Below, one piece after another: positions 1 through 61,097 of a stretch of DNA of 64,000 nucleotides; the stretch's first letter is position 1, and each line of letters opens with the position of its first letter. The notes under the pieces were generated by a model. The model was not told where the DNA came from. It did not search any database and saw nothing but the letters and a program-made list of their open reading frames with translations. The DNA is taken from contig CM059447.1 in NCBI GenBank assembly GCA_030390025.1, forward strand, positions 15,376,001-15,440,000. Reading direction: 5' to 3'. The DNA is from Squalus acanthias (taxonomy: Eukaryota). Both the position numbers and the translations under genes were made by a program.

Positions 1-910
1 ATGAGTGACCAAGACCTATTGGCTTAAAATGCAGGATGGGTAGAACACCCTAATATTCATAGGCTGAAGAATGATCTATCTTGAAAATAGAAGATTTTAT
101 TTAGTATTTTTTTGGTTAAGCTACTTGGTTCTGTGAAGGAATGTAATCATGTTAAGAAGAACTTCATGAAGTTGAATATGGTTTTGCAATTTTATTAGAT
201 AAACTCAAGGCATGTATATTTAATATTCTTTCAAAGATGGCAAAGGTGAGTAAGCGGGAGCATCTTAATTATTCATCCCGGTGTGGGCTAAATTTCTACT
301 GCACAACTCTTTGGGCCTACGTGAACGTGGACATGCCTCCTATCCCCAGAGCTTTGGTCCAGGCACGATGTGGCATCAGTGCACACTTAATAAATACTTT
401 TGACCACGGCCCATTGGGATGCGGCATTTGCTCTCCTTGAGGATACAGTTCAACATCACTGCAGACTTAATGAGATGTTTATCCAGGACAAAGAATTAGC
501 AAGGAATCTGTTGACAGACTAGGAGGAGGAGTTGTGATACAATATGACACATTTGATGTCAGTGGCCATCATTTCGTATGCCTCACTTAAGAGCAAAGTG
601 AAAAGGAATTAAGATAATACTGCCTGCAATACGAGGTTAAGATCCGAGAGTGAGCTCACACAGCAGGGACCTGTGAAAAGATGCTTAAAAATTTGACACT
701 AAAGAAATTGGCTTAAGTTGCCTGAAAGGGAGCTGGAGGCTGATTTTCAACAGACGTCAGGCTCACTCCAACTTCCAGTGAGCAGAATAAAAAAGGTAAA
801 AGATTTCCAATGCAAAAGCAAAATACTGCGGATGCTGGAAATCTGAAATTAAAACAGAAAATGCTGGAAATGCTCAGCAGGTCAGGCAGCATCTGTGGAG
901 ATGGAAACAG

Positions 911-947
911 AGTTAACGTTTCAGGTTGAGGACCTTTCGTCAGAACT
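911..947 (-). ncRNA. Minimal hammerhead ribozyme motif (core intact, one stem II mismatch)
   Basis: Reverse complement reads AGUU-CUGACGA-A-AGGUC-CUC-AACCU-GAAA-CG-UU-AACU. Confidence 0.7.
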
Positions 948-989
948 GTCGGTGGCCATCATTTCGTATGTCTCACTTACGAGAACTGG

Positions 990-1026
990 GGTTCTGTTGA
1001 AAGTTCATCGACCTGAAACGTTGACT
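990..1026 (+). ncRNA. Degenerate hammerhead motif (core CUGUUGA)
   Basis: ggttctgttgaaagttcatcgacctgaaacgttgact; core and stem II are mutated. Confidence 0.5.
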
Positions 1027-1683
1027 CTGTTTCTCTCTCCACAGATGCTGCCTGACCTGCTGAGCATTTCCAGCACTTTCTGTTTTTATTTATTATAAAC
1101 GATTTCCAATATTGGTTATACAACCGATCTAGGAAATCAGCACAAAACAGAACTGGCGCTCTCTTTTCTCTCTGTGGAGGTTTGCCCTCAGTGTTATATG
1201 TGAGGTGGGTTGTGGCAGTTGTTATAATTCAGGGCAAAAGAGAGATTCAGATTTTCAGCATCCACAGTATTTTGCTTTTGCTTTTGGTTTTTTTTCCCCA
1301 ACACTCATGCGGAATCTGTAGGCAGGTCCGTGCCTCCTACGAACCAAAATATAACTTTACGTGTAAAGTGAATGGGATAGTGTATCTCAGGGTTAAACTA
1401 CAATTTGTATTTATACATCAAATATACTTTAAACTTGTGCTGAAAACAAAATAATGCAGTATTCAACTTCTTAGAGTCCTTTTCCACGTCCTTTAACCGA
1501 GTTGTTTGGTACCAATATTTTGATGTTTCTTACGTGGAGCATACCTCAGCCTCAACAAATTTCTGCCCCAGTGCTGTGATGTGGAAATACAGTTCAAACA
1601 AATGGACCAAAGATATAGTGAAGAACTGCAGCAAATATACCAGGACCAGGGAGCTTCTAACACCTCAGATCAAAATCAGGCCT

Positions 1684-3918: not shown

Positions 3919-4148
3919 GAAAATAGGTGTGTGACAGAAACAAAAACAATGGGATGGGAAAATATAGTTATGAGGAGAGACTGGGACTACTTCCACTGTA
4001 ACACAGGAAACTAAAGGGGTGATCTTAACCCTGCCTACCTGGCGGAAACTGGGCAGGCTCGAGGGGCTGAATGGCCTAGTCCTGTTCCTATGTTCCTAAC
4101 CAAAGTCAATAAAAATGATTGTTTTAAGTGTCATGTGCCTAAAAATAT

Positions 4149-5729: not shown

Positions 5730-5779
5730 CCCGGTGAATTATGTTCGACTGTTCAACCGTGGGAGAATCGTAGATGAGC

Positions 5780-10270: not shown

Positions 10271-10864
10271 GCATTGTCCGACTTTTTGGTTTTGGTGATG
10301 CTAGCTCCAACAATTTAAAGATCTAAGGGGAAAAATTTGCAGGGCTATGGGGAAAGGGCAGGGGAATGGGACTAATTGGATAGCTGTTTTGATACAGCAC
10401 AGAAGAAGGCCATTCTATGATTCTATGATAAGGGATATATTTATGAGGCTCCACCCCCAGCATGAAGCCTGTCTAGATGGGAGTGCAGGGTCACAGAATT
10501 GTCCCTTTTAGTGTTATATCTCTGACCTGCACTCCCACCTACTGAGGCTCTACTCTAGGTCCAGCCCTCCCCACTCACCCCCATGGTAAAATGACCTCGA
10601 TAATCTGTTGTTTGAAAATATGAAACTTTGCAAGTCTTTTGGGGGTGATGTGCATCAGACATCCTCCAATGGGCACTATCCAGAAGCCTGACATTTTCCA
10701 GGAACTGACAGGAAATGTTGATTAAAAGGAAGTCTATCGAAAAATGGAGTACCAGGGGAATGTGCAATTGGCCAATTTTAGTTCCAATGAAAATAGAAAA
10801 TGCACAGCAGGCCGTTAAGCGTCTGAAAGAAAAATGTGAAATAACTAATATTGATGAATGGTCC

Positions 10865-10975
10865 CACACAAAACGTTAACCTGTCTTTCACTTTCAAATG
10901 CTGACTGACCGACCTGCTGTTTTTCTAGCATTTACTGTTTTTATTTTCAGATTTCATCATTCAGGTTTTCGCTTT
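10865..10975 (+). mobile_element. Degenerate Penelope-like family A 3' terminus
   Basis: aaacgttaacctgtc...gacctgctg...agcatttactgttttt. Confidence 0.55.
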
Positions 10976-12000: not shown

Positions 12001-12663
12001 TGGGAGAGAACCTGAGGGAGCGCACTGCAAGGGGGGGAAGCTAACCTCCAAGGCATCGGCAGAGTACAACACTTGATATCTCTTTTGGGTTAATGTTCTG
12101 TGAGGAGATAGTGGGGTAGGCCCCATCATTAGGCTTGGATGAATCAATGTGTTGTGTCGAGGTAAGTAAGGATTGAATTGCTTTGAGGATACTTTAGGTA
12201 GTGTTGGGGCTGAAGATTTTTAAAAGCCTCAGTTTTAATATTTTCTGGCGGTGTACCTGAGCTGATTACATCAAAGGTATTGTGGTATCCAAGGTTGTAA
12301 TTTGAAGTACATTCAAGCTGTGGTTTGGAGTAGTGCAAATCTGTGACTCTACGGTGACACTGCCAGAACGATCTTACAAAAGCTTTTCTGTTTTGTAGCT
12401 TGAGCTGCAACACACTAAAGCAGGGCTTTAGCCACTTGCCAGTGTTTATTGTTAAGACTAGGCTTGCACTCTGTGGCACTAAATGTAACCTGCTTGGTCT
12501 GAGCACAGTTGACATTCAGGATCCTTTTACTGATAGTTTGGATGCCAGTCTGAGTTATGTACTTGCTCCTCAAATATTTGTTTAATTTCTCCACCACACC
12601 TTCATGCTCCACAGCTGGATTTCCCCCTTCTTCCCCGAGTGGCCCTGCCTTCTCTTTAACTGT

Positions 12664-12835
12664 GAGAAGTCGCACAACACCAGGTTATAGTCCAACAGCT
12701 TTATTTGAAATCACAAGCTTTTGGAGCGCTGCTCCTTCATCAGGTGAAGTGAAGAGATGCATATAGGCACAGCATATATAGTCAGAGAACACTGGCAGTC
12801 CACCCCAGTCCAACACCGGCATCTCCACATCATGG
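12664..12835. mobile_element. Penelope-like element (family B) inverted cassette
   Basis: Antisense arm with a hammerhead motif (12711-12747, GAAA mutated to AAAA) joined to the sense terminus gtccaccccagtccaacaccggcatctccacatca. Perfect 15-bp direct repeat cttctctttaactgt at 12649-12663 and 12836-12850. Confidence 0.75.
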
Positions 12836-13139
12836 CTTCTCTTTAACTGTTCTTCTACTTTGAATATGCTTATAAAAGCCCTTACTATTTCCATTTATAT
12901 TATCTGCTAGCCTTTTACATACTCTCCTTTAGCCCTTCTGATCTCCATTTTCACTGCCCCATTACACTTTCTATATTTGTCATGTTTTTAGTATTGTTAG
13001 TCAGATCCTTCTTATCTCACTGAACCTTCCCTTTTTCCAATTCAGCACCATTATCTTTAACTGTTTATTGTCCTTTTCTATTTTGACATTGAACCTAACA
13101 ATGTGGTGGTCACTATTTCACAAATGTTCTCCTACTTAC

Positions 13140-16399: not shown

Positions 16400-17030
16400 A
16401 TTGAGTAGATTGGGCCTATACACTCTGGAGTTAAAAAAATGAGAGGTGATCTCATTGAAACATATAAGATTCTGAGGGGGATTGACAGGGTAGATGCTGA
16501 GAGGCTGTTTCCCCTGGCTGGAGAGTCTAGAACTAGGGGGCATTGTCTCAGGATAAGGGGTCGGCCACTTATGATTGAGACGAGGAGGAATTTCTTCACT
16601 CAGAGGGTTGTGAATCTTTGGAATTCTCTATCCCAGAGGGCTGTGGGTGCTGAATCATTGAGTATATTCAAGGCTGAGATGGATAGATTTTTGGACTCTT
16701 GGGGAATCAAGGGCTATGGGTATCAGGCGGGAAAGTGAGTTGAGGTCGAAGATCAGCCATGATCTTATTTTATTCGTTCATGGGATGTGGACGTCGCTGG
16801 CAAGACCAGCATTTATTGCCCATCCCTAATTGCCCTTGAGAAGATGGTGGTGAGCCGCCTTCTTGAACCGCTGCAGTGCGTGTGGTGAAAGTGCTGTTAG
16901 GGAGGGAGTGCCAGGATTTTGACCCAGCGATGATGAAGGAACGGCGATATACTTCCAAGTTATTGAATGGTGGAGCAGACTCGAGAGGCCGTATGGTCTA
17001 CTCCTGCTCCTAATTCTTATGTTCTAATGT
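16400..17030 (+). mobile_element. CR1/HER1-type LINE 3' fragment, interrupted
   Basis: ORF MRGDLIETYKILRGIDRVDAERLFPL...FFTQRVVNLWNSL, followed by the 3' UTR hairpin and ttcttatgttc tail. Confidence 0.92.
16770..16959 (-). mobile_element. Second CR1-group LINE 3' end nested in a CR1 3' UTR
   Basis: Encodes YRRSFIIAGSKSWHSLPNS. Flanked by ttatt at 16765-16769 and 16960-16964. Confidence 0.8.
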
Positions 17031-17094
17031 TCATTGGGTAAGTGCATCATATGTGTTTGGAATTGAGCCATCACAGAGAACAACAACAACTTAT

Positions 17095-20930: not shown

Positions 20931-21013
20931 TGGAACCATGCCGCAGTAGAAGTCAACACCTTTGGGGAAAAAAGAAACGAGCAACAAAAATAGAATTCTG
21001 ATAGGTCCGATCC

Positions 21014-21499
21014 ACCAGATTGATTCCTGGGATGGGGGGATTGTCCTATGAGGAGAGAGATTGAGTCGACTAGGCCTATATTCTCTGGAGTTTAGAAGAA
21101 TGAGAGGTGATCTCATTGAAACATACAAAATTCTTACAGGGCTTGACAGGGTAGATGCAGGGAGGATGTTTCCCCTGGCTGGGGAGTCTAGAACCAGGGG
21201 TCACAGTCTCAGAATAAGGGGTCGGCCATTTAGGACTGAGATGAGGAGAGATTTCTTCACTCAGAGGGTGGTTAATCTTTGGAATTCTCTACCCCAGAGG
21301 GCCGTGGAGGCTCAGCCGTTGAGTATATTCAAGTCAGAGGTCGATAGACTTTTGGATATTAAGGGAATCAAGGGATATGGGGATAGGGCGGGAAAGTGGA
21401 GTTGAGGTAGAAGATCATCCATGATCTTATTGAATGGCGGAGCAGGCTCGAGCAGCCAAATGGCCGACTCCTGCTCCTAATTCTTATGTTCTTATGATT
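21014..21499 (+). mobile_element. CR1/HER1-type LINE 3' fragment
   Basis: ORF RLGLYSLEFRRMRGDLIETYKIL...WNSLPQRAVEA with a (ttcttatg)n tail. Confidence 0.93.
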
Positions 21500-23616
21500 C
21501 CTCTTTTTCAGCGATTTCAGTAAAGTGTTAATTCAACACATCTTCCAGAAGCTGATATATTTTGGCAAGCACAGCCATGGCCTAAGCCTGCAAAACTATC
21601 TGCAGGTGGCTCCAGATGGGTTAACTAATTGTTGGATTATATTCTTTGTTTACCAGAATCTAGGAGAACAGGAAATAAATAGAGGATGCACATCATCTCC
21701 CCTGGGGCTTAGAATACATTTTTTTCCTTTTATTCAGTCAGTGACACAATTTACTAATCTGTGAATGAGTGGGTTACGGTGGCGAGGATCACAGATGCGA
21801 CTGTGAAGAATAATGTGTAGTATAGTTGTACTGTAATGTGCAACTATTTCCTAAAAGTGGGGCTGAGGAGTGGAACTAATTGGACAGGCACAATTGGCCG
21901 AATTTCCTCCTTCTGTGTTGTATGATTCTATGAATATCTTTAGCAAGTTCTTTTCTCTTCATTGGCAAAGAAATGAAAAGCTGTAAGAAAATTCCGTCAA
22001 GTGACCATCATTTTATTAGGCGGAAGTTTTTCCACAGAAGGGATTCAGAAAAAAGAGTTACTTTTAATGTTGGGATTTTAAAGAAGTTTTTTGATATAAA
22101 TTTAGAAAAAAGCCACCTAGATGAAAGGTTGTTAATATGCTAATGGCAGTTGTTTCCCCCTTGCACAGATTGCAAAGAAGCAATTTGTTAGCTTCCCTCA
22201 GTGATCAATAAACACCTTGGCTTGGAGTTGCCTCCGCATTTACGGCCAGACACGCCCGTAATCTGCGTGCAAACAAATTACGTGGCTTAAAGACCGCAGA
22301 ATTGTGGGCGTGAGTTACGCGCCTAACTACAATACGCCCAAGTCTCGACCTTTTACGTCTCTCTATCAAACGCTCCGTCTGAACGAATCTCCACGCACAA
22401 AATTGGCCACACCCCTGATTCTCAAATGTGAATATCCTCCAATTGTGCTTGTTTGGGGGATTCTCTCAACATTAAGACCAGATGTTTTAATTGCAATTTT
22501 TTGAGAAAAATGCATCCTCACTGAGATCTGCTCTGTATTTTCTGTTTCTTTTAATGAACTTTTATGGCATCACTGTAAGTCACATTAAATATTGAAAAGC
22601 CTCCCCAATTGCAGGTTCTTAAACATGCTATGTCTGGTGTGCATGAATAATGGTTAAATGAGTTGAAGCTTAAATTTTCAGACTCACAGAAGAAATATAC
22701 TGGTGTGGGTTCGACGTTTCCTTGGGCCCCGATTGTTTACGCTGATTTATGCCCATTGTAAGTTTTTGTGTATCCTAGTGAGAGTGGAAGGATACTTGGG
22801 TGTAACTTGACATTGGCGACAAAATACTGGGCGTATTTTTGGGTCTAACTTCTGGGTTGCGCCCAAGGAGGAAACTCCAGGCCCTCAGACCCATCGTGTT
22901 GGCAAATCTGGTCACGGGCACGCGGCAAGGTGTGAACAGAGGCAAGTAATAAAAAATAGAGGCAGAGGCAGGTAGTCAGGCCTAGCAAAGGTTACAGGGT
23001 CAGTCAGCTTTTTAAAGGAAAAGCTGCGAGGGCCTTCACCGAGTCAGAGGTTAGAAATGCTGGAGGAGAGTTGGAAGCCATCTTGTTTAAGTCAAGTAAG
23101 ACAATCGACTGATATGAGGAAGTGTGGCATGTTCATCTTATGGTGAAATAAAGCAGCTTATCAATTCATGTCCCATCTCACCAAATGTTTGCTCAGCCCA
23201 CCTCCAGAGAAGTTCAAGAAGTACATGTGCGAAGGACACAAATATCCAGTTTAGGTCATATGCGGGTATTATTGTTACACCCCCGAGTTATGCTATCATA
23301 CAACTAGGTGTAGGGTCAACTCTGTGAGTGAGTCAACTCCCACAAAAATAAGATGCTTAGACTGCTTATGAGAGTGACTGATGTCATTGAACCCTAGAAG
23401 GTATCTATAGAAGACCAGAATTTGTATTAAGTACATTAAAAAAAAACATGTAAGGTCTGGGTTTCTAGTAGGTTGGAATAATCCCCTTTTACATCCTCAG
23501 ATCCTGTATATGAATCCAGTCCAGATAGATTAATAAAAACCACCTGTCTGTTAAGGGTCTTGTATGATTTGAGCAGATGATAGTTCCAGGGACATTAATC
23601 ATTTTAGTGGCATTGA

Positions 23617-24020
23617 ACTTAAGAAATAGGAGCAGGAGTCGGCCATTTGGCCCTTCGAGCCTGCTCCACCATTCAGTAAGATCCTGGCTGATCTTCTACC
23701 TTAACTCCACTTTCTCACCCTATCCCCATATTCCTTGCTTTCCTTAGTGTCCAAAAATGTATCGATCTCAGTCTTGAATATACTGAATGACTGAGCATGC
23801 ACAGCCCTTTTGGGTAGAGAATTCCAAAGATTCACCACTCTCTGAGCGAAGAAATTTCTCCTCATCTCTGTCCTAAATGGCCGACCCCTTATCCTGAGAC
23901 TATGGCCCCTGGTTCTAGACTCTCCAGCCAGGGGAACAGCCTCTCAGCATCTACCCTGTCAAGCCCTGTAAGAATTTTGTACATTTCAATGAGATCACCT
24001 TTCATTCTTCTAAACTCCAT
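23617..24020 (-). mobile_element. CR1/HER1-type LINE 3' fragment
   Basis: Reverse-complement match to 21085-21499. Confidence 0.9.
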
Positions 24021-24607
24021 TGTCCTAAACCCATTCTTCTAAACTTCCTTCCTAACACAATACCTATTGTGTTGGGATAAGGGCAGGAGAAGGAAGGATG
24101 AGGCTCCTCTGTAGTCTGTACTGTGAAACTGAAGAGAGTGCTCTTCACAGAATCTACAATGAGCTGATACCCCTTGGTATTGGTAGTTTCAAATAGCCAG
24201 AGCACTGTTATATGTAACTGTGTAAAGTAAATGACATGTGTCATCTGAGGCGAGGGTTTCACCGGATATCCCTGATGGCTGGATGCCAGCGGTTGTTGAA
24301 ATGGTAAATGGTTGCCGATGGTAGGGCATTCACGGGATCCACCATCTTGTGTATGGCTGCGGACGAGCTAACCTGTTAGTCTACAGTTCAGCAATGAGCT
24401 ATTGCCATTTCACTGATGTTCGGGAAAGTCACAAATATGATCGTGGACTAACTGTGTACGTGCAAGATTTGAACGTGTGCAGTTCCTTTAAATTCCATTC
24501 AAGGCGTTGAAGCAACTGCACATGCCCAAATATTCCTCTGTTGCAGATTCCGGCCCACAATGTTAACAGGTCCAACTCAGCACCAAGAGGATTGGATTAG
24601 AGTACAG

Positions 24608-24760
24608 AAATAAAAACAGAAAATGCTGGAGATACTCAGCAGGTCAGGCAGCATCTGCAGAGAGAGAAACAGAGTTAACGTTTCAGGTCGATGACCTTTC
24701 GTCAGAACTGGACCTTTTCTGTTTTTATTTCAGATTTCCAGCATCTGCAGTATTTTCTTT
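24608..24760. mobile_element. Penelope-like family A inverted cassette
   Basis: Antisense arm with hammerhead joined to the sense terminus. TSD ttggattagagtacag (24592-24607) and ttggattatattacag (24761-24776), 14/16 match. Confidence 0.78.
24673..24709 (-). ncRNA. Minimal hammerhead ribozyme motif, intact
   Basis: Reverse complement reads AGUU-CUGACGA-A-AGGUC-AUC-GACCU-GAAA-CG-UU-AACU. Confidence 0.8.
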
Positions 24761-24799
24761 TTGGATTATATTACAGGCTGCTTCTATAATCTAAATGGG

Positions 24800-28952: not shown

Positions 28953-29285
28953 CATGGCAGCTGTCTTTCATTCTGCCAGCGCAATTTACACTTCATCTAG
29001 AGCCATCTTTTGTTTCTTAACCTGTCCCATTACCATCTCCTTTGGCCTTGAATATCTCTTTAATGTCTCTTAACCTCACCTGCCTTCTATCCTATCAGAG
29101 ACCTTCCCTTTTGTTCTTTCATCCCCTCCCCCCTTTCCCAGCCCCTACACTCGCTTAAAAATCTGTTCCATTTCCTGCTTTTTTCCAGTTCTGACGAAAG
29201 GTCATCGACCTGAAACGTTAACTCTGTTTCTCTCTCACAGATGCTGCCTGACCTGCTGAGTATCTCCAGCATTTTCTGTTCTTAT
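28953..29285 (+). mobile_element. Penelope-like family A 3' terminal (pLTR-like) fragment
   Basis: Colinear with 60766-61097 and contains a hammerhead motif. Confidence 0.8.
29187..29223 (+). ncRNA. Minimal hammerhead ribozyme motif, intact
   Basis: agtt-ctgacga-a-aggtc-atc-gacct-gaaa-cg-tt-aact, with palindromic AACGTT in place of stem III. Confidence 0.8.
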
Positions 29286-29864
29286 TGGAGATTAATTGAT
29301 GTTGATGAGGGAAATTTGTAGATTCTCAGGTGCTTGTAAATTTCTAGCTCCAGGTCAGAAGAACCAACATGATAAGAATTTTTTTTAACATACTTTTTGA
29401 TGCTCTGAAAGGTGACATCTGAAGTGAGACAGATCTCAATTGTTTTCCCCGAAGGCACTACCCGTGGGTAGTCTTGGATTTGAGGTTGCAATGTTTAGGC
29501 ACTAACCTAGCCTGTCCCTTTAAGGCCACTGTTCAGGTACTTCCTGTGGTGAAATACTCTAAATAGCTCCTGAAATCAATTATCGGCTAACCGCTGTTAG
29601 TAAAGGAAGTTTGCAAATTTATGGCTCCATATCAAACTTCACTCAACAACAGAAATTAACCTCCGCATGATGTGACTGCCTTTCTTTTTTATACTTCTGA
29701 CATTTTGAAATGTGGCATCTGATGGACTGGTCTCCAAACCTTTATATATATATAGATCAATAAGAAATTAGAAGTAACACACTGGAAGATCCTAGACAGG
29801 TCCTAAAACGCTCTTCTGTGTTTAATATTATATTTAAATGGTAAACATTTTTTAGAGCACTCAC

Positions 29865-33420: not shown

Positions 33421-35979
33421 GAAAATTAAAATAAAAACCGAAAGCTATCTTATCTGTGTCTCATATTTATTTTTTAATGGGTGGGTGTATAACAAATATT
33501 GGGAGGAAAATTCATAATCCTAATCAGATCTCTTCTGGAATGCTTTTTGCCTAGGATTGCAACACAGGCTAGCTCGTGTTTCATTGGAATGGAAAGAAAA
33601 TAATGAGGTCCTGTTGTGATCACTAATCTGTAGGTCGTGCCAATGGCAGGTTTTTTCCACCTGAAGTGAAAGATTTTTCAGCTCAGGGGAACTTAGTCTG
33701 TATATTTTTTTAGCTGGTTTCCACTTGATCATCTTCTCTGACCCTTGTTTTGAGGTCAATGGTCCCAGCTCTAGTGAAATCTATTAAAGAGTCTGCACAA
33801 TTTAATCCAAGACAACACACCCAAAGGTAACCACTCAATGGTAGCTTTTTATTCTGCTTGCATTACAGTGTTGTAAAGCAGATTCAAAAATTCAGCAAAT
33901 ACCACATGTTCCTCTCTGTCCAGACTCATAAATGAAAAATGGCCTCTTGGGTGAGGCAAGGGAGAATGTATCCCACCACAAGTCTGCACCTTCTGAGAGG
34001 AGGGAGAGAGATAGAGGGCAAATAAAAAGATACGGTGAATGAAACCAAAACTTCATAACCTGAGCAAATGACTTTTCAGGTACATGGGCTGACTGGCGCT
34101 TAATTATGTAATGTTTATGATTTGTTTAATTATTACCCTGAGATGCTTGTTAGTGTCTTTAAAAATGCTGCTGACCAAGCCTTCTTTGTGCAATTCCTTG
34201 TCGCCTCCTTACTTGATAAACTGTTCGGAATACTTGTTTTGTAGTAAGGGAGGCGAGACGTTCCTGACTGATAAACTTACCGCAGTCAAGCTTCACAAAC
34301 CAAATGACTTTTGGAAGTGCACTGACTTTTGTTGTGTCGGCAAACACAGTAGCCATTCTTTGCCAGCAATGTCCCACCAACAGCAAAGGAACAGATGACC
34401 ACTTATTAGGAGCGATCCCTGGGCTGAGTGTTAGCATTCCCGCCTCTGCGTGCAGCATTTGAGCCACACTCCCGGCGGGTGGAGACCGGAGCTCCGGCTC
34501 TGAATCCTGAGTTGGCGTCCAGCGGGATACTTGCGTCCAATGGGTGTGGGTGCCTCCACCCTCATCGTATGGGTTGCGGGGGCCCATAAAACCTTGCTAT
34601 TGTAGAGCACGAACCACCCTATTGGCTGGTATAAAGATGGTATATGGCCATGGAAGGAGCATTCCCGTTGGATTAATCAGCCATTGCTTCACGCTATTCT
34701 CCAAAGGAAGAGTGTGACAATACAAAAACAACAACAACCGCTTATTAAGTCTGCGTGTTTTTTTATTCAAATCCACAGATTTTACAGATTTACTTTGTGC
34801 TGTTTGTGTTGCCAAACTATGCACCGATACAATTGTCATTAAAAATATAATAAAACAGGCTGTGTTAAAGAAATGGCCAGACTCCTAACACGATGATTTT
34901 GTGACAAAAGTGGTGTTGACAAAAGTAAGGATAAACAACAGAGAATAAAATAAACCCACATCATACAGAAATGAGAAAGCAAAAGAGGAAATTCTCATGA
35001 ATGCATCTGTCAGTGCGGCAGCAGCCACAGTTAGGCCAGTGATACAGATTATTGAATCACACTTCACACAAGTTCCCATTTGAGGGTGGGTTTATTTGAG
35101 GAGGGGGCAATGGCAGCAGTTCAGTTATTGTAGTGATGTAAATGACTGAATTATCAGGAGCATACTGTATTAACTTTCAGTTCACTGAACAGGAGAAGCA
35201 TTCCCCCATCCTCAGCAGTCCTGAATAGTTTTCCGATCTGATTTGAAAAGTACAATCTTGTGTAGATTGTTAAACCCCTGCTTTTGAATGGCCTTTAAAT
35301 ACCTGTTGATACCCAGCTACAGGAGGCAAACAAAGGAACAATGGGAATCAGTTGCACTCTTCTATTGTCAATTTCCCAGACGGCACAATGAGCTTCCTGT
35401 TCAAAAAGAGAAGTGAGACAAATATAGTAAAGGAGAAGGTATAAATTTAGCTTAAAGCGATCTTACAAAGATCGTGATGCGGGAGAGCACCCCGCTTGGG
35501 CCTAAATTTGCCTTATGCTGGTTTGAACTTATGTCCTTTTTTCCCAGTTGGTAAGAATGCTGACTCGAAGGCGCTACAGCCACTGGCAGCGTTCCCCAAC
35601 ACTGCTCCTGCTCAGATCAGCTAACCCGGCAGAGACCGAGGGTGAAACCCGCGACCTTCTAAGTCAGCGTGGCTCAGTCCACACTACATAGCACATTTAT
35701 CCAATGAGCTGTCAGAGGTGCCCACAGCAGGGATCTTTCAGTCTCGGGTGGACTTCCTATCCAACAGCTTGCTGACCGTGTAAAGGAAAGGGTTCCTGTG
35801 ATCATGGCCTGTGGGTCCATCATATTAAAGAAAGTGTAGTGCAGCTAAACTTGTGCTGTGGTGTTTGGTATAGTGTGGTAGAAAGAGGGATCTTGCCCCT
35901 AATACCCCTTAAGGTGAGTTCTTCCTCTAATGAGCAGAGACCAATGTGAGAAGTCGCACAACACCAGGTTATAGTCCAA

Positions 35980-36752
35980 GGGGTAAAAATTGAGTCGCGC
36001 CCCATTTGGGGCGCTAACCTCGCCGGGGCGCGACTTTTAGCGCCCCGAAAAAATTAGCGGCCCCGCGCCGGAACTTCAGTGGTTGCGCCCCAAGAGGGAA
36101 GCGGGGCGCAACTGGAAGCACCCCGCATCCCTCTTGGGGCGCTGCGAGTGAATATCCTGGCGCTACGTGCCGCAGCGCCACGCGCTGCGGCACGTCGCGC
36201 CGCGGTATTGCAGGCCTTCCTCCCCTTCTTAAAGGGGAGGGGCCTTGCGCAGCGCGAACCGGGGCCCAGCTGGGCCCCCAGGGATCGGGAGTGCCGGCAA
36301 AAGAGCCCGGCACTCAAGAGAAGTGCCGGGCTCTTGGAGCGCAGCCGGCACTTCACGGTGGGGGGGCTTCACGGGGGCCGGGGACAGCAACGGGGGCAGG
36401 TGCTGGCAGGCGGCCAGCAACAAAAATGGCCGCCTGCCACCTCCCCTTTAAATATCGCCGCCCCGGCCGCACGTACGCCCCCCTGAACCCGTCGGACATA
36501 GCGTCTGGCGGTAAATCAGGGGGCGCGACTGAAGATCACGGCCGGGGCGCGAGCGGGGCGCTGCGCACGGCGATGACGTCATCGCCGGCGGCGCAGCGCC
36601 ACAGGGCGCTACCGGCTGCCGCCGCCGCTAACCTCCCACTAAATTTTTCGGGAGGCGTGGGCGGCGCTGCGCCCGGGCGTTAGCTGCTTTACGCCCCATT
36701 AGCGCCCATTTAAGGCGCTAACGGGAGGCGCAAGCAGCTGAATTTTTCCCCC
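35980..36752. mobile_element. CpG-rich non-autonomous PIF/Harbinger-type element (773 bp)
   Basis: TIRs ggggtaaaaatt and aatttttccccc. 3-bp TSD CAA (35977-35979 and 36753-36755), which is provable because the host repeat reads gttatagtccaacag uninterrupted at 12684-12698. Confidence 0.85.
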
Positions 36753-36770
36753 CAACAGTTTTATTTGAAA

Positions 36771-36807
36771 TCACAAGCTTTCGGAGCGCTGCTCCTTCGT
36801 CAGGTGA
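36771..36807 (-). ncRNA. Minimal hammerhead ribozyme motif (family B), intact
   Basis: Reverse complement reads UCAC-CUGACGA-A-GGAGC-AGC-GCUCC-GAAA-GC-UU-GUGA, with palindromic AAGCUU. Confidence 0.8.
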
Positions 36808-36842
36808 CCTGACGAAGGAGCAGCCGCTCCGAAAGCTTGTGA
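36807..36842 (+). ncRNA. Hammerhead motif (family B), stem I clipped by the inversion junction
   Basis: ac-ctgacga-a-ggagc-agcc-gctcc-gaaa-gc-tt-gtga. Confidence 0.7.
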
Positions 36843-38045
36843 TTTCAAATAAAACTGTTGGACTATAACCTGGTGTTGTGCGACTTCTCACATTTGTCCA
36901 CCCCAGTCCAACACCGGCATCTCCACATCAGAGCAGAGACCAGGCACATCTAACCAGTGTAGGAGGGAGGGACCTTCGATGGTGACTCATACAGAGCTGT
37001 TCTCACTTCTCTCCTGTTCACTTCATTGTGCTTCTAAATGTTATTCATATTTGATTGTGTTAAATTCAATTGTAGAATGAAGTGAGTCAAACTTAGATAG
37101 CAACTGCACCTAGATCCTGCGCAACATGCAGTTACATACACAGGGAAGAGAAGATGTGCTTTTAATCCATGTCATGGGGGAGAGAGCTAATTGGTCTGCT
37201 TTCCTATGTTTCTTTGTGGCTAGTGTGGCAACATTCACTGTTGAGGCTGGCACCCAATCCCCTTTCTGAGCTGGTCTCTAACCATTGCATTACAGTGGTG
37301 CAAATTACTGGGTCTCCAGTTTTCCCTGGGTCCCCACGTGCTAAAAGGTACTGGCAAGTGCCGTCGTTGCGCAACACCACTTTATAGCTGCTGTTTGCAA
37401 AGTCCAGTTTAGACAAGTGAGGCAGAAGAAGGATGTGACAGCTTCACATTGAAATGTAGTGGTGGCCTTTACACATCTGATTATGTAATACAGAACTGAG
37501 TTCTGCCTCTCCCTACCTTCAGATTGAGGCCGCACCCAGATGTGTAAACATTCCTAACTCAGTGCACATGTCACTCAGGGTGCATTTGCTGTACTTTCAC
37601 TTTATCGTGAGCTGATAGTTTCCGATAACTCTACCAGGCCACAGTGCTGTGACTTAGAAGGGATGGGAACCGAATTATATTGTGAGTCATCAAAATTCTT
37701 ATGTCCATGAGTCATTAAAGGAACAGTGTCAGTAAGGTAAAGTCTCTTTTTATAAATATTTCATTTAATTTACAGGAGTGTGTGGTAATATAACAGATGA
37801 TTAGGGTGAAATTTCCTGCGGGGATGTAATTGAGAAGTTATGGCCATTTGTGCACCCATTTTGCCAATGCCTATTTGCACCCAAATTTCCTGCCAAACTC
37901 ATTAACATACACCAAAACATAACAATCAACATAAACAATCGGGGTTCGAGGAAAGCACCGAACTTGCTCCGCATATTCCATTTTTAAGCCTGGAAAATTA
38001 AAGTTTCAAGCCACCTAACTATCATTCACGCACATTAGGCACCGC

Positions 38046-41015: not shown

Positions 41016-41110
41016 AAGTGGGAAAGGGAGGGGGAGTGCAACCATAAAAACTGTTACAGAAAATGGAAAAGGCAGGAGTCGGATTATTTACACCGTGGTA
41101 AAACAGTGTG

Positions 41111-41790
41111 AACATAAGAACATAAGAAACAGGAGCAGGAGTAGGCCAATCGGCCCCTCGAGCCTGCTCTGCCATTCAATAAGATCATGGCTGATCCAAT
41201 CTTGGCCTCAACTCCACTTTCACCGCTCTCTCCCCATACCCCTTGACTCCCTTGTAGTTCAAATGTCTGTCAATCTCTGCCTTGAATATATTCAGTGACC
41301 CCGCCTCCACAGCTCTCTGGGGTAGAGAATTCCAAAGATTCATGACCCTCTGAGAGAAGAAATTCCTCCTCATCTCCGTCTTAAATGGGCGACCCCTTAT
41401 TCTGAAACTATGCCCCCTAGTTCTAGATACCCCCACTAGGGGAAACATCCTCTCAGCATCTACCCTGTCAATCCCCCTCAGAATCTTATATGTTTCAATA
41501 AGACCACCTCTCATTCTTCTAAACTCCAATGAGTATAGGCCCAACCTGCTCAACCTTTCGTCATACGTCAACCCCTTCATCCCAGGAATTAACCTAGTGA
41601 ACCTTCTCTGCACTGCCTCCAATGCAAGTATATCCTTCCTTAAATATGGAGACCAAAACTGTACGCAGTACTCCAGGTGCGGTCTCATCAGCGCCCTGTA
41701 AAGTTGCATCAAAACTTCCCTACTTTTATACTCCATACCCCTTGCAATAAAGGCCAGCATTCCATTAGCCTTCCTAATTACTTGTTGTAT
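41111..41790 (-). mobile_element. CR1/HER1-type LINE 3' fragment, young
   Basis: 191-aa open frame LYRALMRPHLEYCVQFWSPYLRKDI...WNSLPQRAVEA and a (gaacataa)n tail. Confidence 0.95.
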
Positions 41791-42409
41791 CTGTATGCAC
41801 GTGCAATCAAATTTAGCTCTGCATCTATGTGTAACTGTTTTCTCAAAGTCTCACTGTAAGAAGCTGAAAATGCTTTTATTTGAATTAGGCCGTCCTGACT
41901 GAGTACCTTCCTTGTATGCGATTTATTTTAAAGAAGGGCATGCAGCTGTCCATATGTCACAATGATCTATGTATAAGTTTTGGGTTCAGCTTCCTGGATT
42001 CTGGTAACTATGAGTGGTTTAACTGCTGACAGACTTTTCTTGTGGTGGTTGTGTTATCAGGGCCGAGGTGTGGTCATCTATACAGCGGTCAGTTTGGCTT
42101 TGGCACGCGCCCTAGCATTCTGACTGATTTTATTTGGAAAAAGAAGTATAAAACAGATCTCATGCTGAGGAATACCCAAATACCCAAAAGGAATGAACCA
42201 TGTGTTCTAGTTAAAAAAAAATTCTAATAAAATACAAATGAAAAAAACATGTTCCAGTTTGTGAGGTGACCTCAGCCTCAAGCTTATGTACAGTTACACA
42301 GGTTCCTAGTTTAACCCTTATGTTCTGCTTTTCTTCTGGAAAAATATTTAGGAGCATGAAGGACGATAGTTCTATTCGTAGGGTTCATTTGGCTGCTAGC
42401 TTCCTGCAC

Positions 42410-46529: not shown

Positions 46530-49040
46530 ATGTCCTTTCAATTTCTGATCCATTCCCAGGGTTTACCCTGAATACCCACAGCTTTCAATGTAATTAATAG
46601 CCTTTCACGGGGAATTTACTCAATTGCAGTTTTGGAAGTCGAGGTACACCACTTCATAGAGCTTACCGCAGTGTACTTGGGTTGCCACTTCCTCTAAGAA
46701 GTCGAGAAGGTTAGTCAGACAGGATCTTCCCTTTCTGAATCAATGCTGACTGCTGTTAACTAGGTTCCTGTTGTATAGATGATCTTCAAGCTTACTCCTG
46801 ATAATCAATTCCGTTATTTTACATGAAATGGAAGTAAGACTAATGGGTCTGTAGTTGCCTGTTTCTATTTTGTCGCCCTTTTTGAGCATGGCCACCACAT
46901 TAGCCTGTTCCGATCTATTGATTATCAGTGCCTCATAAATCTCTTCCCGAATCTCTTTCTGCACTCTGGAATAAATATCAATTATTCTGGGGATTTATTT
47001 GTTTTCAGCACAATTAGCCTGTCTAGGACTTCCATCTCATTTGTAACAGTCATTGGTTTTACTTGGGATACCCTTGTTTCTAGAGGGCTGCACTGTTGGA
47101 GATGTCATCTGTCGGATGAAATGGTAAACCAAGGCCCCATCTGCTCTCTCAGCTGAACGTAAAAGATCCCATGGCACTATTCAAAGAGCAGGGAAGTTCT
47201 GCCGGTGTCCTGATCAACATTTATCCCTCAACTAATACCTAAATCAGATGAGCTGGTTATTTATTTTCATTGCTGTTTGTGGGAGCTTGCTGTGCACAAA
47301 TTAGCTGCTTTGTTTCCTACATTACAACAGTGACTACACTTTAAAAGTACTTTATTGGCTGTAAAGCGCTTTGGGACGTCTTGAGGTTATAAAAGGTGCT
47401 GTATACATGCAAGTTCTTTCTTACCCAGATTAGTTCTTGTAGCTTTCTACCTTACACAGGATAAACTTCTTTTACCTCCAAGCTGTCCCTGACATATAGG
47501 TCTACATCACCTCCTAATTTGTCCATTCTGTATTTTCAAAACACTCTACATCCCTGAATGTTAAATTAATTTCCGTCCATGTTCTTGATATTCCCACCAT
47601 ATTGTAGCTTCTAGCTGTCAGAACAGATTCCAATTCATTTACTCCTATGTGGACTACTATCACTGAGTCCCTACCTGTCCCCTTCAGTAGCCCTCCTTAC
47701 CTTTCCTCAGTGTGTACTGCTCTAGCTCCTGGTAGACTACTCACTCACCATCGTGTAGGCTTTGTTCATACGACAAACATGGCTATCCACTTTCCAGAGC
47801 AAAGAATTGCCTATGATTACAATCTTTCTGTGACCTGCAAACTGCATCTTTGTCTATTTTGTACTCTCTAGTTTTCTCACTACACTTTACTTCTGCAATG
47901 TTGGACAGTGTCCGGCATCTGTTCACTAATGTAATCTCAGATATTTTCAAAGAGTTTCTACCTATCTTTCTTTTTTGAACCAATCTTTATCCATCCAATA
48001 TATACATTACCTTGACTTCACCAGCAATTGTTCCTTTGACATGACAACACTGTTCCTGATTCTACTGGTCCCCAGTTCCAATCCCTGAATGTTCACTCTT
48101 GACGTCTGAGACTAGCCTGATCATATGACTTACCTGAAAGTCTCAGGGGACTGGGACTAATTGGATAGATCTTTCAAAGAGCTGGCACAGGCACAATGGG
48201 CCAAATGGCCTGTGCTGCACCATTCTATGATTCTATGAAATGACTCACTTACTAAATCCAACACTATTTAGTCACCCTCAAAAATTGCCTCACTTCTGTC
48301 TATCTACCCTTGTGAGTCCCTTGCTCTCTAAACTCCTTCTTTAAGCTGACTGATTAACAGACCGTTTCCGCATCTCTTCACCCTTCTATTGTATCTGGCT
48401 GTCTCATTTGTGAACATCCCACAGCAAATATACCTCAAAGTCGCCATCTTAGTTTCTTTCTCTCATCTGTTTCCCTTCCTTGTTGTATTTCTCCCGTTGT
48501 CCCCTTTGGTTTAACTTTCTTTCAACCCCGGTGCTCCCTTTTGATTTTACTTTTATCTGGTGCCCTCTTTTAATTGTTACTTCCCTCTGGTGTTTTCTTT
48601 TACTTTTTACTTCCTTCGGGTGTTATTTAATTTGGCTTATTCTGGGTGGTCCTCTTCATCGTCTGCTCCACACAGGTGTTTCCTTTCATCTTCGTTCTTC
48701 TCCACTGCACCCTTAAACTCTTAACTTCTTAGCTTTTCTCCTTTTAATCTCCTGCCTGTGCTCCTCTTCAAGAAGATACCTCGAGTTACTGATCCTTTTG
48801 TCTTTCCTGCTCCCCTGTTACTGTACCTGATTGCTGAAACTTCACGTTGTGCGGAGGCTTTGGTGAATCGAGCTCTGCTCGCGGCAAAGTATTGGCCCGA
48901 AACAGTTCACCTTGTTGCCAATTTAGATGGCGTCTGTGGTCCTTTTGGTTCACTTCTGCTGGTGTCTGAGTTCTTTGGTGTCTCTGCTGTTTATTGATGC
49001 TTTTGAAACTTTCACGGGAGCGCTCGGAGGAGCTTCTGGC
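46530..49040 (-). mobile_element. Internally deleted CR1 LINE: 5' region and ORF1 esterase remnant through to the RT start
   Basis: Minus strand GGLLKGTGRDSVIVVHIGVNEL (~47631-47696) resembles the CR1 ORF1 SGNH-esterase VVHIGTND motif. KKGDKIETGNYRPISLTSISCKITE (46740-46964) is pre-RT. The 5' boundary is uncertain. Confidence 0.65.
47087..47422 (+). mobile_element. SacSINE1-like SINE, 5'-truncated, nested in CR1
   Basis: Colinear with 1800-2135. Confidence 0.82.
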
Positions 49041-49332
49041 AGTAAACCACTAATCAACTAACTCAGCACAGACTGGGGAGTGAACCTAGGAACTCGTGGT
49101 CTTGCACGGCTCAGTTACTCACGGGCTTTTACCGGCACAGTCCCTCTCCGGCTTCCTCTCACTAATGCCAGATTCAGTCTGCAGTAATTCCTCCATGATA
49201 AGTTATGCATTTATGTCTATTCCAGTCGTTCTCCAAAAGTATTGACAAGCCTGTGACCCACACTGCTCCATCCTCTACTGGACCAGGGAGCATGGCAGTA
49301 GGAGTAAATGGCTCCAATCGAATTTTCTTACT

Positions 49333-49783
49333 AAAATAAAAACAGAAAATGCTGGAAATACTCAGCAGATCAGGCAGCATCTGTAGAGAGAGAAACAGAG
49401 TTAACGTTTCAGGTCGATGACCCTTCGCCAGAACTGGAAAAGTTGGAGATGTAACAGGTTTTTAAGCAAGTGTAGGGGGAGGGGAGGAAAGAACAAAAGG
49501 GAAGGTCTGTGATAGGATGGAAGGCAGGAGAGATTAAGAAACAAAAGGGATGATGGTGCAAGGCAAAAGGAGATGGTAATGGGACAAGTTAAGAAACAAA
49601 AGATGACTCTTGATGAAGTGTAAATGGCACTGGCAGAATGATCAACAGCTGCCATGTGAGAGAGAGAAAAAAATGATAGGAGCAGAGGTTATGGTCTGAA
49701 ATTGTTGAACTCGATGTTGAGTCCAGAAGGCTGTAAAGTGCCGAATCAAAAGATGAGGTGCTGTTCCTCGAGCTTACGTTGAT
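49333..49783 (-). mobile_element. Penelope-like family A fragment: GIY-YIG C-terminus remnant, 3' region and mutated hammerhead
   Basis: Antisense QRKLEEQHLIF*FGTLQPSGLNIEFNNFRP*. Hammerhead at 49399-49435 has core CUGGCGA. Confidence 0.82.
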
Positions 49784-50837
49784 TTTTTTACTATTGTAAA
49801 ATTTTTACTATTGTAATGAACGTACCCCTGTGTTCATACTCAGTTGTTCTCCTGCTCTGTTTAACAAACTGCTGTTTAAATCAAGTTTAACATTCCATAA
49901 AGATTTACATGGAGAAAGTTGCCAATAAACACTTTCTCACAAGCTGTGCTTATAAGTGTGCCTGAGATCATGGCTGTAATTTTTCTGAATTGCAAAACAA
50001 TTAAAGGAGGATGATGCTGTAACATCGGCAGGGTGTGAGAGCTGGAACAGAGGATTCCACAATCTTCGAGGTCTATTGCGGACCTTCACCTGGAGCATAC
50101 TTTTCAGCAAATATTTGGACGCCACCTGCTATTTTGAAGTGCACAAGAGTACTTTAATAAAGCCGACACCCTAATACAAGAGAAACAAAAACTTGCCCTG
50201 TTCCTATAAAGCAATTCGTGATGTGTTCAAATGGTTTACCTATAAAAAAGCACCTAAATTTCCATGTACATAAATAACGCACACCAGACCAGCAAAATGT
50301 TTAGAATATTCCTACCGTTTGTAAACTGCTGACCATAATCAAAGAGCAACAAAGTCACTTCATCATGTTCCATCATAGTGTGTATCAGAAACCATTACTG
50401 GTAGTCATGTATCCTCTGATTCATTCAGTGCATTAACTCAAATGAATCAGCTATTACCTAACTGATATGCGTATAAATTGAATCTTGGCACTTACAAGAC
50501 TAGTAGCATCAACATTGTGAAATGTTCTCCCAATTAACCCACGTGACACGTGTAGAGACTGTGAGGTAGACTTTCCGTGGTGGTTGTGGATCAGGATGGG
50601 AAGTTGTGGTGGAGGTTTTCTCACCGACCAGAGTAGCACATTGGCTGACCCTGATGACCGCTGAACCTCATTAGCTATATACAGTGAACTGCCGTCAGGT
50701 CATTCACCAGTAACAGGCAGCTTGCAGCTTTGGGTATGGAATATCCAACCCTGAAATAGCTGTTTAAGGAGTGGATCTTTTTTTTTAACAAGCAAACACT
50801 TTTGGAAAGTTCTTCTACACTATTCTGAACTATTATT

Positions 50838-50939: not shown

Positions 50940-51101
50940 GGGCACCCTAACCCACAGGGGAGCAGTCAACATTGCCTGAGATTATGGATGTAATTTTCCT
51001 CTTCAAGATGCCAGTAATCTGATCTATAGTAGATGCATGGCTTTGTTGTATCTGCTGACCACGGGTCTCCCAAGGATGATGTTAACCTGCAGACTGTCAT
51101 G

Positions 51102-51977: not shown

Positions 51978-52069
51978 TTTGTCTCCTAGGAGACATCCTT
52001 GACGTTTGCCTTCTTCACAGGCACAGGATTGGCTTAAAATAAAAGTGATGTGCTGCTAGGCACTGTCCT

Positions 52070-60580: not shown

Positions 60581-60584
60581 CTGT

Positions 60585-61097
60585 TCCATTGAAGATCAAT
60601 GTAAGCTCGAGGAACAGCACCTCATCTTTCGATTAGGCACTTTACAGCCTTCTGGACTCAACATAGAGTTCAACAATTTCAGATCATAATCTCGGCCCCT
60701 GTCATATATATTTTTTCCACACTTTTATTTTGGTTTTTTTGTTTGTGTTCTTTTCTTCTCTCCCACATGGCAGCTGTCTTTCATTCTGCCAGCGCAATTT
60801 ACACTTCATCTAGAGTCATCCTTTGTTTCTTAACCTGTCCCATTACCATCTCCTTTTGCCTTGACTATCTCTCAATGTCTCTTAGCCTCTCCTGCCTTCT
60901 ATCCCATCACAGACCTTCCCTTTTGTTCTTTCATCCCCTCCCCCCTTTCCCAGCTCCTACACTTGCTTAAAAATCTGTTCCATTTCCTGCTTTTTTCCAG
61001 TTCTGACAAAAGGTCATCGACCTGAAACGTTAACTCTGTTTCTCTCTTCACAGATGCTGCCTCACCTGCTGAATATCTCCAGCATTTTCTGTTTTTA
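60585..61097 (+). mobile_element. Penelope-like family A fragment: GIY-YIG C-terminus, 3' region and mutated hammerhead
   Basis: 60591-60689 encodes EDQCKLEEQHLIFRLGTLQPSGLNIEFNNFRS*. Hammerhead at 60999-61035 has core CUGACAA. Confidence 0.85.

What the first reader, a model, noticed from the sequence alone, without database searches (positions are those of the whole stretch)
29187..29223. Dense set of minimal hammerhead ribozymes in two Penelope-like families
Seen: nine hammerhead-like motifs in 64 kb. Family A is at 911, 990, 24673, 29187, 49399 and 60999; family B is at 12711, 36771 and 36807. The families have unrelated stems (II: AGGUC/GACCU vs GGAGC/GCUCC; I: AGUU/AACU vs UCAC/GUGA) but the same CUGANGA-A...GAAA core and a palindromic hexamer in place of stem III (AACGUU vs AAGCUU), so the structure covaries. 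Three copies are fully intact (24673, 29187, 36771). Family A is tied to a GIY-YIG C-terminus (LEEQHLIFRLGTLQPSGLN) at 60591 and ~49700. Known: Penelope-like pLTRs carry minimal type-I hammerheads thought to cleave as dimers through the palindromic stem III. Inference: this genome holds a very large reservoir of potentially self-cleaving RNA motifs.
Basis: partly seen in the sequence, partly recalled or inferred. Interest (0 to 1): 0.8.

Follow-up and report, generated by a model that had tools for sequence, protein, structure and literature searches.

The report
Shark Penelope transposon ribozyme fossils
These are real but mostly broken or unpaired self-cutting RNA motifs left behind by a known class of jumping gene in a shark or ray genome; they are ordinary, except that many copies start exactly at the ribozyme, which hints at where the element's RNA begins.

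Summary
All nine motifs are present, plus a tenth decayed one. A strict minimal-hammerhead descriptor finds 4 in the window against 0.002 per shuffle. They are pLTR hammerheads of Penelope-like elements (PLEs) in a cartilaginous fish, a kind published in 2014. Family A follows the last ~35 residues of a GIY-YIG endonuclease. Family B has no coding link here and is assigned by architecture: head-to-head arms, a 35-nt tail and target duplications. The ten motifs come from eight insertions.

The 'reservoir of self-cleavers' reading is weak. Four of nine cores are mutated and the core decays as fast as its flank (3/66 vs 16/360). The nearest same-strand neighbour is 7.6 kb away, and the 36771 and 911 copies are buried in hairpins with their inverted partners.

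One side observation: 4 of 8 insertions start within ~5 nt of the hammerhead's 5' edge and none at the cleavage site. A TATA-plus-initiator pair points to that edge in both families. This suggests transcription starts at the ribozyme and that uncleaved RNA is copied. Support from unrelated PLEs was weak.

The parts
29187..29223 (+). Family A minimal type-I hammerhead, intact: stem I 4 bp, core, extra A, stem II 5 bp with A10.1-U11.1, 3-nt loop, palindromic 15.2/16.2, U17. Predicted cut between 29219 and 29220.
28953..29286 (+). 5'-truncated family A PLE end (3' UTR plus pLTR) that carries the 29187 hammerhead; 95% identical to 60766-61097; no target duplication found
29156..29191 (+). Putative core promoter: one-mismatch TATA heptamer 31 nt upstream of an initiator-consensus A at 29187, the first base of stem I. 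The same site also reads as a 3' splice acceptor.
   Evidence: function inferred
60582..61097 (+). Longest family A remnant: last ~35 codons of the GIY-YIG endonuclease (stop at 60687-60689), 3' UTR, and hammerhead 60999-61035 with G8A. Lies antisense to and upstream of fascin exons, probably in an intron.
49322..49793 (-). Family A remnant (element 49334-49781) with the endonuclease C-terminus (in-frame stop), hammerhead 49399-49435 with A6G and G10.1.U11.1, and a 12-bp target duplication with 1 mismatch
24592..24776 (.). One family A insertion: hammerhead arm 24608-24712 on - (intact hammerhead 24673-24709, arm starts 7 nt 5' of C3), head-to-head with a 53-nt arm on + that ends in the tail (24715-24767); 16-bp target duplication with 2 mismatches
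797..1110 (.). One family A insertion: arm 812-948 on - (hammerhead 911-947, core intact, 36-nt tail 812-847), filler 947-983 matching 557-593, arm 991-1091 on + (hammerhead 990-1026, A6U, stem II broken, no tail); 15-bp target duplication with 1 mismatch
10852..10945 (+).
1246..1281 (+). Isolated family A tail fragment, not assigned to an insertion
12649..12850 (.). One family B insertion inside a CR1-like LINE remnant: arm 12664-12797 on - (perfect TATAWAW at 12780-12774, initiator A at 12750, hammerhead 12711-12747 with G12A), head-to-head with a tail-only arm 12798-12832 on +; perfect 15-bp target duplication
35932..36942 (.). One family B insertion: arm on - (hammerhead 36771-36807 intact; arm split by a later GC-rich insert at 35980-36751) and arm on + (hammerhead with C3 at 36809, only 2 bp of stem I, 1-nt loop insertion, 35-nt tail 36896-36930). 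Palindrome centre at 36806, inside stem I. Perfect 12-bp target duplication.

Best explanation
These are neutrally decaying fossils of the pseudo-LTR of two endonuclease-bearing Penelope-like retrotransposon families in a cartilaginous fish (A is Neptune-like; B's clade is unknown). In the parent element the minimal hammerhead is a real, selected ribozyme that needs a second copy to build a 4-bp stem III, and probably the element's protein. The scattered copies are by-products of target-primed reverse transcription that starts at either edge of the 35-36 nt tail and stops early, often at the 5' edge of the hammerhead. Once inserted they are solo or antisense-paired, lose core bases at the background rate, and mostly do not cleave. 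Shown here: anatomy, non-chance status, the endonuclease link of A, tails, inversions, target duplications, no excess conservation. Taken from the literature: the dimer and protein requirement, and priming at the tail. Inferred: inactivity of these copies and the reason for the 5' clustering.
For: Descriptor 4 vs 0.0017. The peptide hits PLE-derived gene-model ends at 64-92% identity (one repetitive hit 38%) and aligns to the extreme C-terminus of RT plus GIY-YIG proteins that carry a C-x4-C-x2-C linker. In GTDB contigs holding relatives of those RTs, 17 of 40 loci carry a hammerhead-like motif; in 7 it lies 205-1044 nt after the end of the protein match, against 258 and 314 nt after the stop here (relaxed descriptor, no shuffle control). 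Tails are 36 and 35 nt. Four of 8 insertions are head-to-head, with the tail on one arm only. Target duplications were found in 5 of 8 (3 above all 59 random controls, 2 reached by 3 of 59). All of this matches published PLE hallmarks. Core substitution rate equals the flank. Inverted partners abolish stems I and II in folding, and the family A monomer's lowest-energy fold pairs the core with the cleavage strand. Best named relatives of a LINE remnant in the window are rays and sharks at 67-72%.
Against: No cleavage was measured. The conservation test has six copies and low power. Five of nine cores are intact and all six main family A copies keep a usable substrate strand, so trans-dimers among abundant transcripts are possible. 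Family B has no coding evidence in the window. No RT or linker is present, so 'Neptune' for A is indirect. Three of 8 insertions show no target duplication.
Confidence: 0.85

Rival explanations
1. One reading: the genome holds a large pool of functional self-cleaving motifs that cut host or element transcripts as dimers.
For: 5 of 9 cores are intact and 4 pass the strict descriptor in 64 kb. Dimer structures are formally possible at -9.7 (A) and -19.1 (B) kcal/mol. PLE hammerheads can cleave weakly as dimers or with protein.
Against: No tandem array and no same-strand neighbour nearer than 7.6 kb. No excess conservation. The 4-bp-stem-III dimer is 9.8-13.2 kcal/mol above the dimer minimum, and pairing A14 with U17 is 2.4-2.6 kcal/mol more stable. 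The only copy near a recognised gene is antisense to it and G8A. No RNA-seq ends at the cut site were found for the anole element.
Confidence: 0.1
2. The short copies are a self-propagating non-autonomous SINE- or retrozyme-like family of ~90-140 nt (hammerhead plus tail), not truncation products of full-length PLE RNA.
For: 4 of 8 insertions start at the same landmark. Non-LTR retrozymes are reported as PLE derivatives, including in one chondrichthyan (bioRxiv 10.64898/2026.07.22.740005).
Against: The putative TATA lies upstream of the short copies, so they would lack it. There are no tandem units. The same sequence continues into 3' UTR and ORF in three longer copies. No insertion starts or ends at the cut site, which a cleave-and-circularise route would predict.
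Confidence: 0.12
3. The pyrimidine tract and AG at the 5' strand of family A stem I is a 3' splice acceptor, as in Drosophila virilis Penelope, and not an initiator.
For: The sequence fits an acceptor. In D. virilis the intron ends at helix I (PMC4209133) and the promoter is internal and TATA-less (PMC2377424).
Against: Short copies at 24673 and 911 keep the AG and show no shared upstream exon. Family B has no AG at that place but has a perfect TATA-initiator pair. The two readings are not exclusive.
Confidence: 0.2

Closest known systems
[quoted passage not shown]
   Same: Same consensus: short helix I, CUGANGA plus one extra base, helix II, GAAA, palindromic 15.2/16.2, NUH. Mostly solo copies; opposite-strand pairs were also reported there. 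U17 occurs in 24 of 56 motifs of their Fig. S3 (my count by eye).
   Different: Family A has A10.1-U11.1 in place of the usual G-C, seen in 3 of those 56. No cartilaginous fish is in that list. Local density (4 strict hits in 64 kb) would, if typical, far exceed the ~4,000 and ~9,000 motifs reported for coelacanth and Xenopus.
Poseidon element PAc of Anolis carolinensis (Frangieh et al. 2024, PMC11167929)
   Same: Hammerhead in the pLTR, tail bounded by two reverse-transcription start sites, uncleaved RNA as template. By eye, the RNA printed in its Methods also has a TATA-like heptamer 30 nt before an initiator-consensus A 14 nt upstream of C3.
   Different: Poseidon clade, longer helix II, C17, start codon inside the hammerhead. 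Here no ORF start is established and no intact element is present.
Neptune-clade EN+ PLEs, including a Chiloscyllium punctatum protein (P0026)
   Same: C-terminal GIY-YIG end; hammerhead a few hundred bases after the ORF.
   Different: Only ~35 codons survive here, and the clade-defining linker is seen in relatives, not in the window. P0026 itself lacks the endonuclease, so it is linked only through the RT part of the bridging gene model P0002.
Non-LTR retrozymes of animals (PMC7229834, listing only; bioRxiv 10.64898/2026.07.22.740005)
   Same: Type-I hammerhead, non-coding, PLE-related.
   Different: Defined by tandem units each with a hammerhead; none here.

Membership tests
PLE minimal type-I hammerhead | Core CUGANGA ... 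GAAA with U16.1 and H17 | tested here: met
   Intact in 5 of 9 copies; single core changes in 60999 (G8A), 49399 (A6G), 990 (A6U), 12711 (G12A)
PLE minimal type-I hammerhead | One unpaired base between positions 9 and 10.1 | tested here: met
   A in 9 of 9
PLE minimal type-I hammerhead | Palindromic 15.2/16.2 with no intramolecular helix III | tested here: met
   C/G in family A, G/C in family B
PLE minimal type-I hammerhead | G10.1-C11.1 closing pair (consensus feature, not absolute) | tested here: inconclusive
   Met in family B (broken only by none; 3 of 3 have G-C). Family A has A-U in 5 of 6 and G.U in 1 of 6. Published set by eye: 43 G-C, 8 G.U, 3 A-U, 2 U-A of 56
PLE minimal type-I hammerhead | Located in the pLTR downstream of an RT-EN ORF | tested here: inconclusive
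   Met for family A (258 and 314 nt after the GIY-YIG stop). No coding link for family B in the window
PLE minimal type-I hammerhead | Self-cleavage as dimer or with protein | not testable with these tools
   Only folding energies were computed
EN+ Penelope-like element | C-terminal GIY-YIG endonuclease | tested here: met
   Family A only. The peptide aligns to the last ~25-40 residues of proteins with Pfam RVT_1 and GIY-YIG matches. The peptide alone has no Pfam hit
EN+ Penelope-like element | Telomerase-like RT domain | tested here: inconclusive
   Absent from the window because all copies are 5'-truncated; tblastn with 16 PLE-bearing proteins found PLE sequence only at the two C-terminal remnants
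EN+ Penelope-like element | 30-40 bp tail at one end, inverted pLTR arms, target duplication | tested here: met
   Tails 36 nt (A) and 35 nt (B); 4 of 8 insertions head-to-head; duplications in 5 of 8
Neptune clade | Cys-rich zinc-finger-like linker between RT and EN | tested here: inconclusive
   Present in the five full-length relatives aligned; the region is not in the window
Non-LTR retrozyme | Tandem repeats with a hammerhead in each unit | tested here: not met
   None of 14 tandem-repeat rows overlaps a hammerhead; same-strand spacings 7.6-24.2 kb
Canonical type-I hammerhead (Rfam families) | Match to an Rfam hammerhead model; longer helix I with tertiary loop, intramolecular helix III | tested here: not met
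   No hammerhead family among 17 matches at E<=10; stem I is 4 bp and helix III is absent

The most novel reading that the evidence does not exclude
In these PLEs RNA polymerase II starts at the first bases of the hammerhead (TATA at about -30, initiator in or just before stem I), so the ribozyme is the 5' end of the mRNA and cutting it would remove the cap with ~33-36 nt: an off-switch, not a step that makes the template. A dimer of the element's protein holds two such RNAs, primes one from each strand of a staggered cut at the two tail edges, runs both off the shared 5' end and joins them head-to-head. That would explain solo hammerhead-plus-tail copies, palindromes centred in stem I, a tail on one arm only, and how two minimal hammerheads could meet in trans. 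If the window is typical, the host would also carry an order of magnitude more such motifs per Mb than reported vertebrates.
Probability: 0.3. Interest if true: 0.55.

Novelty: new member of a known kind. Interest (0 to 1): 0.25.

Why it matters
As stated, it adds two shark or ray families to a class known since 2014, and it should not be read as a pool of active ribozymes. The useful part is the insertion anatomy. What the PLE hammerhead does, and how head-to-head pLTRs form, are still open in the papers read. A genome with this many short copies would allow a direct statistical test of where PLE RNA starts, whether cleaved RNA is ever copied, and whether inverted arms come from two templates or from self-priming.

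Tried and rejected
Rfam scan at E<=10: no hammerhead family, as expected for motifs lacking helix III. Pfam on the 32-35 aa peptides alone: nothing; the link needed bridging hits.

A coding parent for family B: none by tblastn or in 134 ORFs of >=78 aa scanned by Pfam, whose one hit was fascin (ORFs overlapping the 6.7-8.7 kb repeat were left out).

Excess core conservation: not found (the decayed tenth copy was left out). Copies starting or ending at the cleavage site: 0 of 8 insertions.

General TATA placement in unrelated PLEs, 16 non-redundant hammerheads from GTDB contigs, three definitions tried: exact hexamer 4/16 vs 5/93 control zones (p=0.025); one-mismatch heptamer 4/16 vs 11/93 (p=0.15); exact heptamer 2/16 vs 3/93 (p=0.155). 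This is weak and the feature is not universal. Those loci had no solo copies or hammerhead-centred palindromes to test 5' clustering. One direct piece in L001 starts about 11 nt after the cut site, which fits neither model.

A fixed 5' end for the two long family A copies: rejected, they differ by ~15 nt. The bacterial promoter scan is irrelevant to a vertebrate. Papers searched for the rate cost of A10.1-U11.1 gave no usable number. Cluster names for the unnamed peptide hits could not be obtained, and no host genome, Repbase/Dfam, viral or metagenome contig collection was available, so copy number and prior cataloguing stayed unchecked.

Full report
OBSERVATION. All nine motifs are at the stated coordinates, and self-comparison adds a decayed tenth at 10852-10945+. 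Both families share one geometry: 4-bp stem I, CUGANGA, one extra A, 5-bp stem II with a 3-nt loop, GAAA, a two-base palindrome, UU, stem I'. A strict descriptor finds 4 copies (C3 at 943-, 24705-, 29191+, 36803-) against 1 hit in 597 block-wise dinucleotide shuffles. Allowing one core mismatch gives 7 against 0.032. Between A and B, 8 of 11 pairs differ on both sides and none is broken; the families were chosen for their structure, so this is descriptive. Rfam returned no hammerhead family among 17 matches at E<=10.

HOST AND SURROUNDINGS. CpG observed/expected is 0.39. The best named relatives of a LINE remnant at 41185-41847 are skate, ray, sawfish and bamboo-shark proteins at 67-72% identity, so the host is inferred to be a cartilaginous fish. 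Fascin exons lie on the minus strand at about 59.9, 58.4 and 54.7 kb. The 60999 copy is upstream of these exons and antisense to them, probably intronic. No other Pfam match came from the 134 plus 47 ORFs scanned.

LINK TO PENELOPE-LIKE ELEMENTS. The peptide at 60582-60689+ and 49781-49695- has no Pfam hit alone. It matches the ends of 4 and 16 database proteins, most of which look like gene models with a transposon fragment fused on. One of them, P0002, bridges to 8 longer proteins with RT domains; 5 of 6 scanned also match GIY-YIG. The window peptide aligns to their last 25-40 residues. They carry a C-x4-C-x2-C linker, the Neptune/Nematis trait described in PMC8557442 (passages). Family A is therefore a PLE, probably Neptune-like. 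An alignment of seven of these proteins found 40 loci in GTDB contigs, which I take to be eukaryotic contaminants. Of these, 17 hold a hammerhead-like motif under a relaxed descriptor (three loci are one contig; no shuffle control). In 7 the motif lies 205-1044 nt past the end of the protein match, against 258 and 314 nt past the stop here. Family B has no coding link in the window.

INSERTION ANATOMY. The ten motifs belong to eight insertions. Four are head-to-head (797-1110, 24592-24776, 12649-12850, 35932-36942), and in each a 35-36 nt extension sits on one arm only. Direct repeats of 12-16 bp abut five of the eight; three score above all 59 random boundary pairs and two are reached by 3 of 59. 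Inverted pLTRs, a 30-40 bp tail and target duplications are the published PLE signature (PMC8557442 and PMC3846280, passages). This is the basis for calling family B a PLE.

ARE THEY ACTIVE? Probably not as they lie. Four of nine cores carry a substitution, and several changes in the motif are transitions at CpG sites. Among six family A copies the core has 3 changes in 66 cells, other hammerhead positions 7 in 156 and the downstream flank 16 in 360 (Fisher p=1; low power). No tandem array covers a motif, and same-strand spacings are 7.6-24.2 kb. In read-through RNA the 36771/36807 and 911/990 pairs fold into long hairpins with stem I and II probabilities of 0.00. The isolated family A motif prefers a misfold that pairs the core with the cleavage strand (-9.1 vs -5.9 kcal/mol). 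In a dimer, extending stem III from 4 to 6 bp through A14-U17 is 2.4-2.6 kcal/mol more stable; I infer that this pair competes with the active fold. Cervera and De la Pena (PMC4209133; main text parts 1-2 of 4, supplement parts 1-2 of 3) report no monomer cleavage and low dimer cleavage. Frangieh et al. (PMC11167929; parts 1-3 of 4) found cleavage only with the element's protein, no need for cleavage in insertion, and no RNA-seq ends at the cut site. Against this reading, 5 of 9 cores are intact and trans-dimers cannot be excluded.

COMPARISON OF THE MOTIF ITSELF. Counting by eye the 56 motifs of Fig. S3 of PMC4209133, U17 occurs in 24, and the 10.1-11.1 pair is G-C in 43, G.U in 8, A-U in 3 and U-A in 2. 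Family B is textbook. Family A has the rare A-U variant. No chondrichthyan is in that list. Searches for shark or chondrichthyan PLE hammerheads gave no description of these families. A 2026 preprint (10.64898/2026.07.22.740005; part 1 of 5 and passages; supplements closed) reports tandem retrozymes in one chondrichthyan, and its tables may bear on this. Repbase and Dfam could not be searched.

THE SIDE OBSERVATION. Element-derived sequence starts at -7, -5, -3 and +1 relative to C3 in the short family A arms, and the family B palindrome is centred at 36806, inside stem I. Counted as events, 4 of 8 insertions start in this ~12-nt zone; P is 2.5e-5 to 9e-4 under three simple nulls, with the zone chosen after seeing the data. 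None starts or ends at the cut site, in line with an uncleaved template. Upstream, family B has a perfect TATAWAW 30 nt before an initiator-consensus A that is 7 nt 5' of C3; only 3 such perfect pairs exist in 128,000 strand positions. Family A has a one-mismatch TATA 31 nt before an initiator A that is the first base of stem I in two copies, and a two-mismatch version in the third (69 one-mismatch pairs in the window). A TATA-initiator pair in a rotifer pLTR was noted in PMC3846280, and I see one by eye before the anole hammerhead. Against generality: D. virilis Penelope has a TATA-less internal promoter and an intron ending at helix I (PMC2377424 passages), the family A site also reads as a splice acceptor, and in 16 unrelated PLE hammerheads only one of three TATA definitions was nominally enriched (p=0.025, 0.15, 0.155). 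Two searches listed no paper whose title or abstract start ties the start site to the hammerhead's first base; I did not read all the listed papers.

MECHANISM, MOST LIKELY. The parent is transcribed from its pLTR, plausibly starting at the hammerhead (inferred). Its protein nicks both target strands and primes reverse transcription at the two tail edges (shown for the anole element). Priming at the 5'-proximal tail gives 90-140 nt copies that run off the RNA end. Priming at the 3' tail gives longer, variably truncated copies with 3' UTR and endonuclease end. Two arms joined head-to-head give the inversions (inferred; Arkhipova's self-priming model is the rival). After insertion the motifs decay.

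VERDICT. Real, non-random, correctly identified, and already a known kind. The claim of a functional reservoir is not supported. Interest 0.25. Other papers seen only as passages without bearing on the verdict: PMC6155905, PMC2837043, PMC544870. A supplement search of PMC11167929 returned no text matches, so its figures S1-S2 were not seen. The label 'CR1' for the LINE remnants is recalled, not from a call.

Noticed in passing
window 54608-54856, 58339-58533, 59817-59993 (- strand): Three coding exons of a fascin gene, the last ending in WEY-stop; Pfam Fascin E 1.9e-12, 3e-10, 9.1e-12. The remaining exons were not located.
   Followed up: partly
window 35980-36751 and 51093-51300: GC-rich, palindrome-rich insert with short G-run/C-run inverted ends that split the family B arm; a related end lies near 51093-51183. 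Probably a MITE; no target duplication was scored.
   Followed up: partly
window 947-983 vs 557-593: 37-nt filler between the two family A arms is 92% identical to DNA 390 bp upstream, suggesting locally templated repair at the junction.
   Followed up: partly
window 812-947 (- strand): One reading frame is open from the hammerhead through the tail, with an ATG 25 nt after the cut site preceded by a pyrimidine tract and AG. It could be the ORF start or a second splice acceptor; not tested.
   Followed up: no
window 12831-12835 (+ strand): An ATG directly follows the family B tail in this copy; possible ORF start, or part of the target site.
   Followed up: no
window 10790-10825 (- strand): Weak match (E 0.38) to the family A downstream profile beside the decayed tenth copy; may be the remains of an inverted arm.
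   Followed up: no
window 6978-8383: 1.3-kb CCCCAT-type tandem array with strong strand skew.
   Followed up: no
window 16400-17033, 21009-21500, 23611-24022, 41109-41850, 52060-52701; and 1691-2141, 3616-4590, 5475-5732, 47083-47426, 61983-62361: Two further dispersed repeat families: LINE 3' ends and an unclassified ~450-bp repeat.
   Followed up: partly
L001-L040: Bacterial genome records in GTDB contain contigs with eukaryote-type Penelope-like RT-endonuclease ORFs and pLTR hammerheads, most likely host contamination; L027-L029 show a 3.08-kb tandem array of a whole element.
   Followed up: partly
L023:1412 (-), L033:2161 (+): Hammerhead-like motifs with the U3-A8 core variant, as reported in schistosomes.
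   Followed up: no
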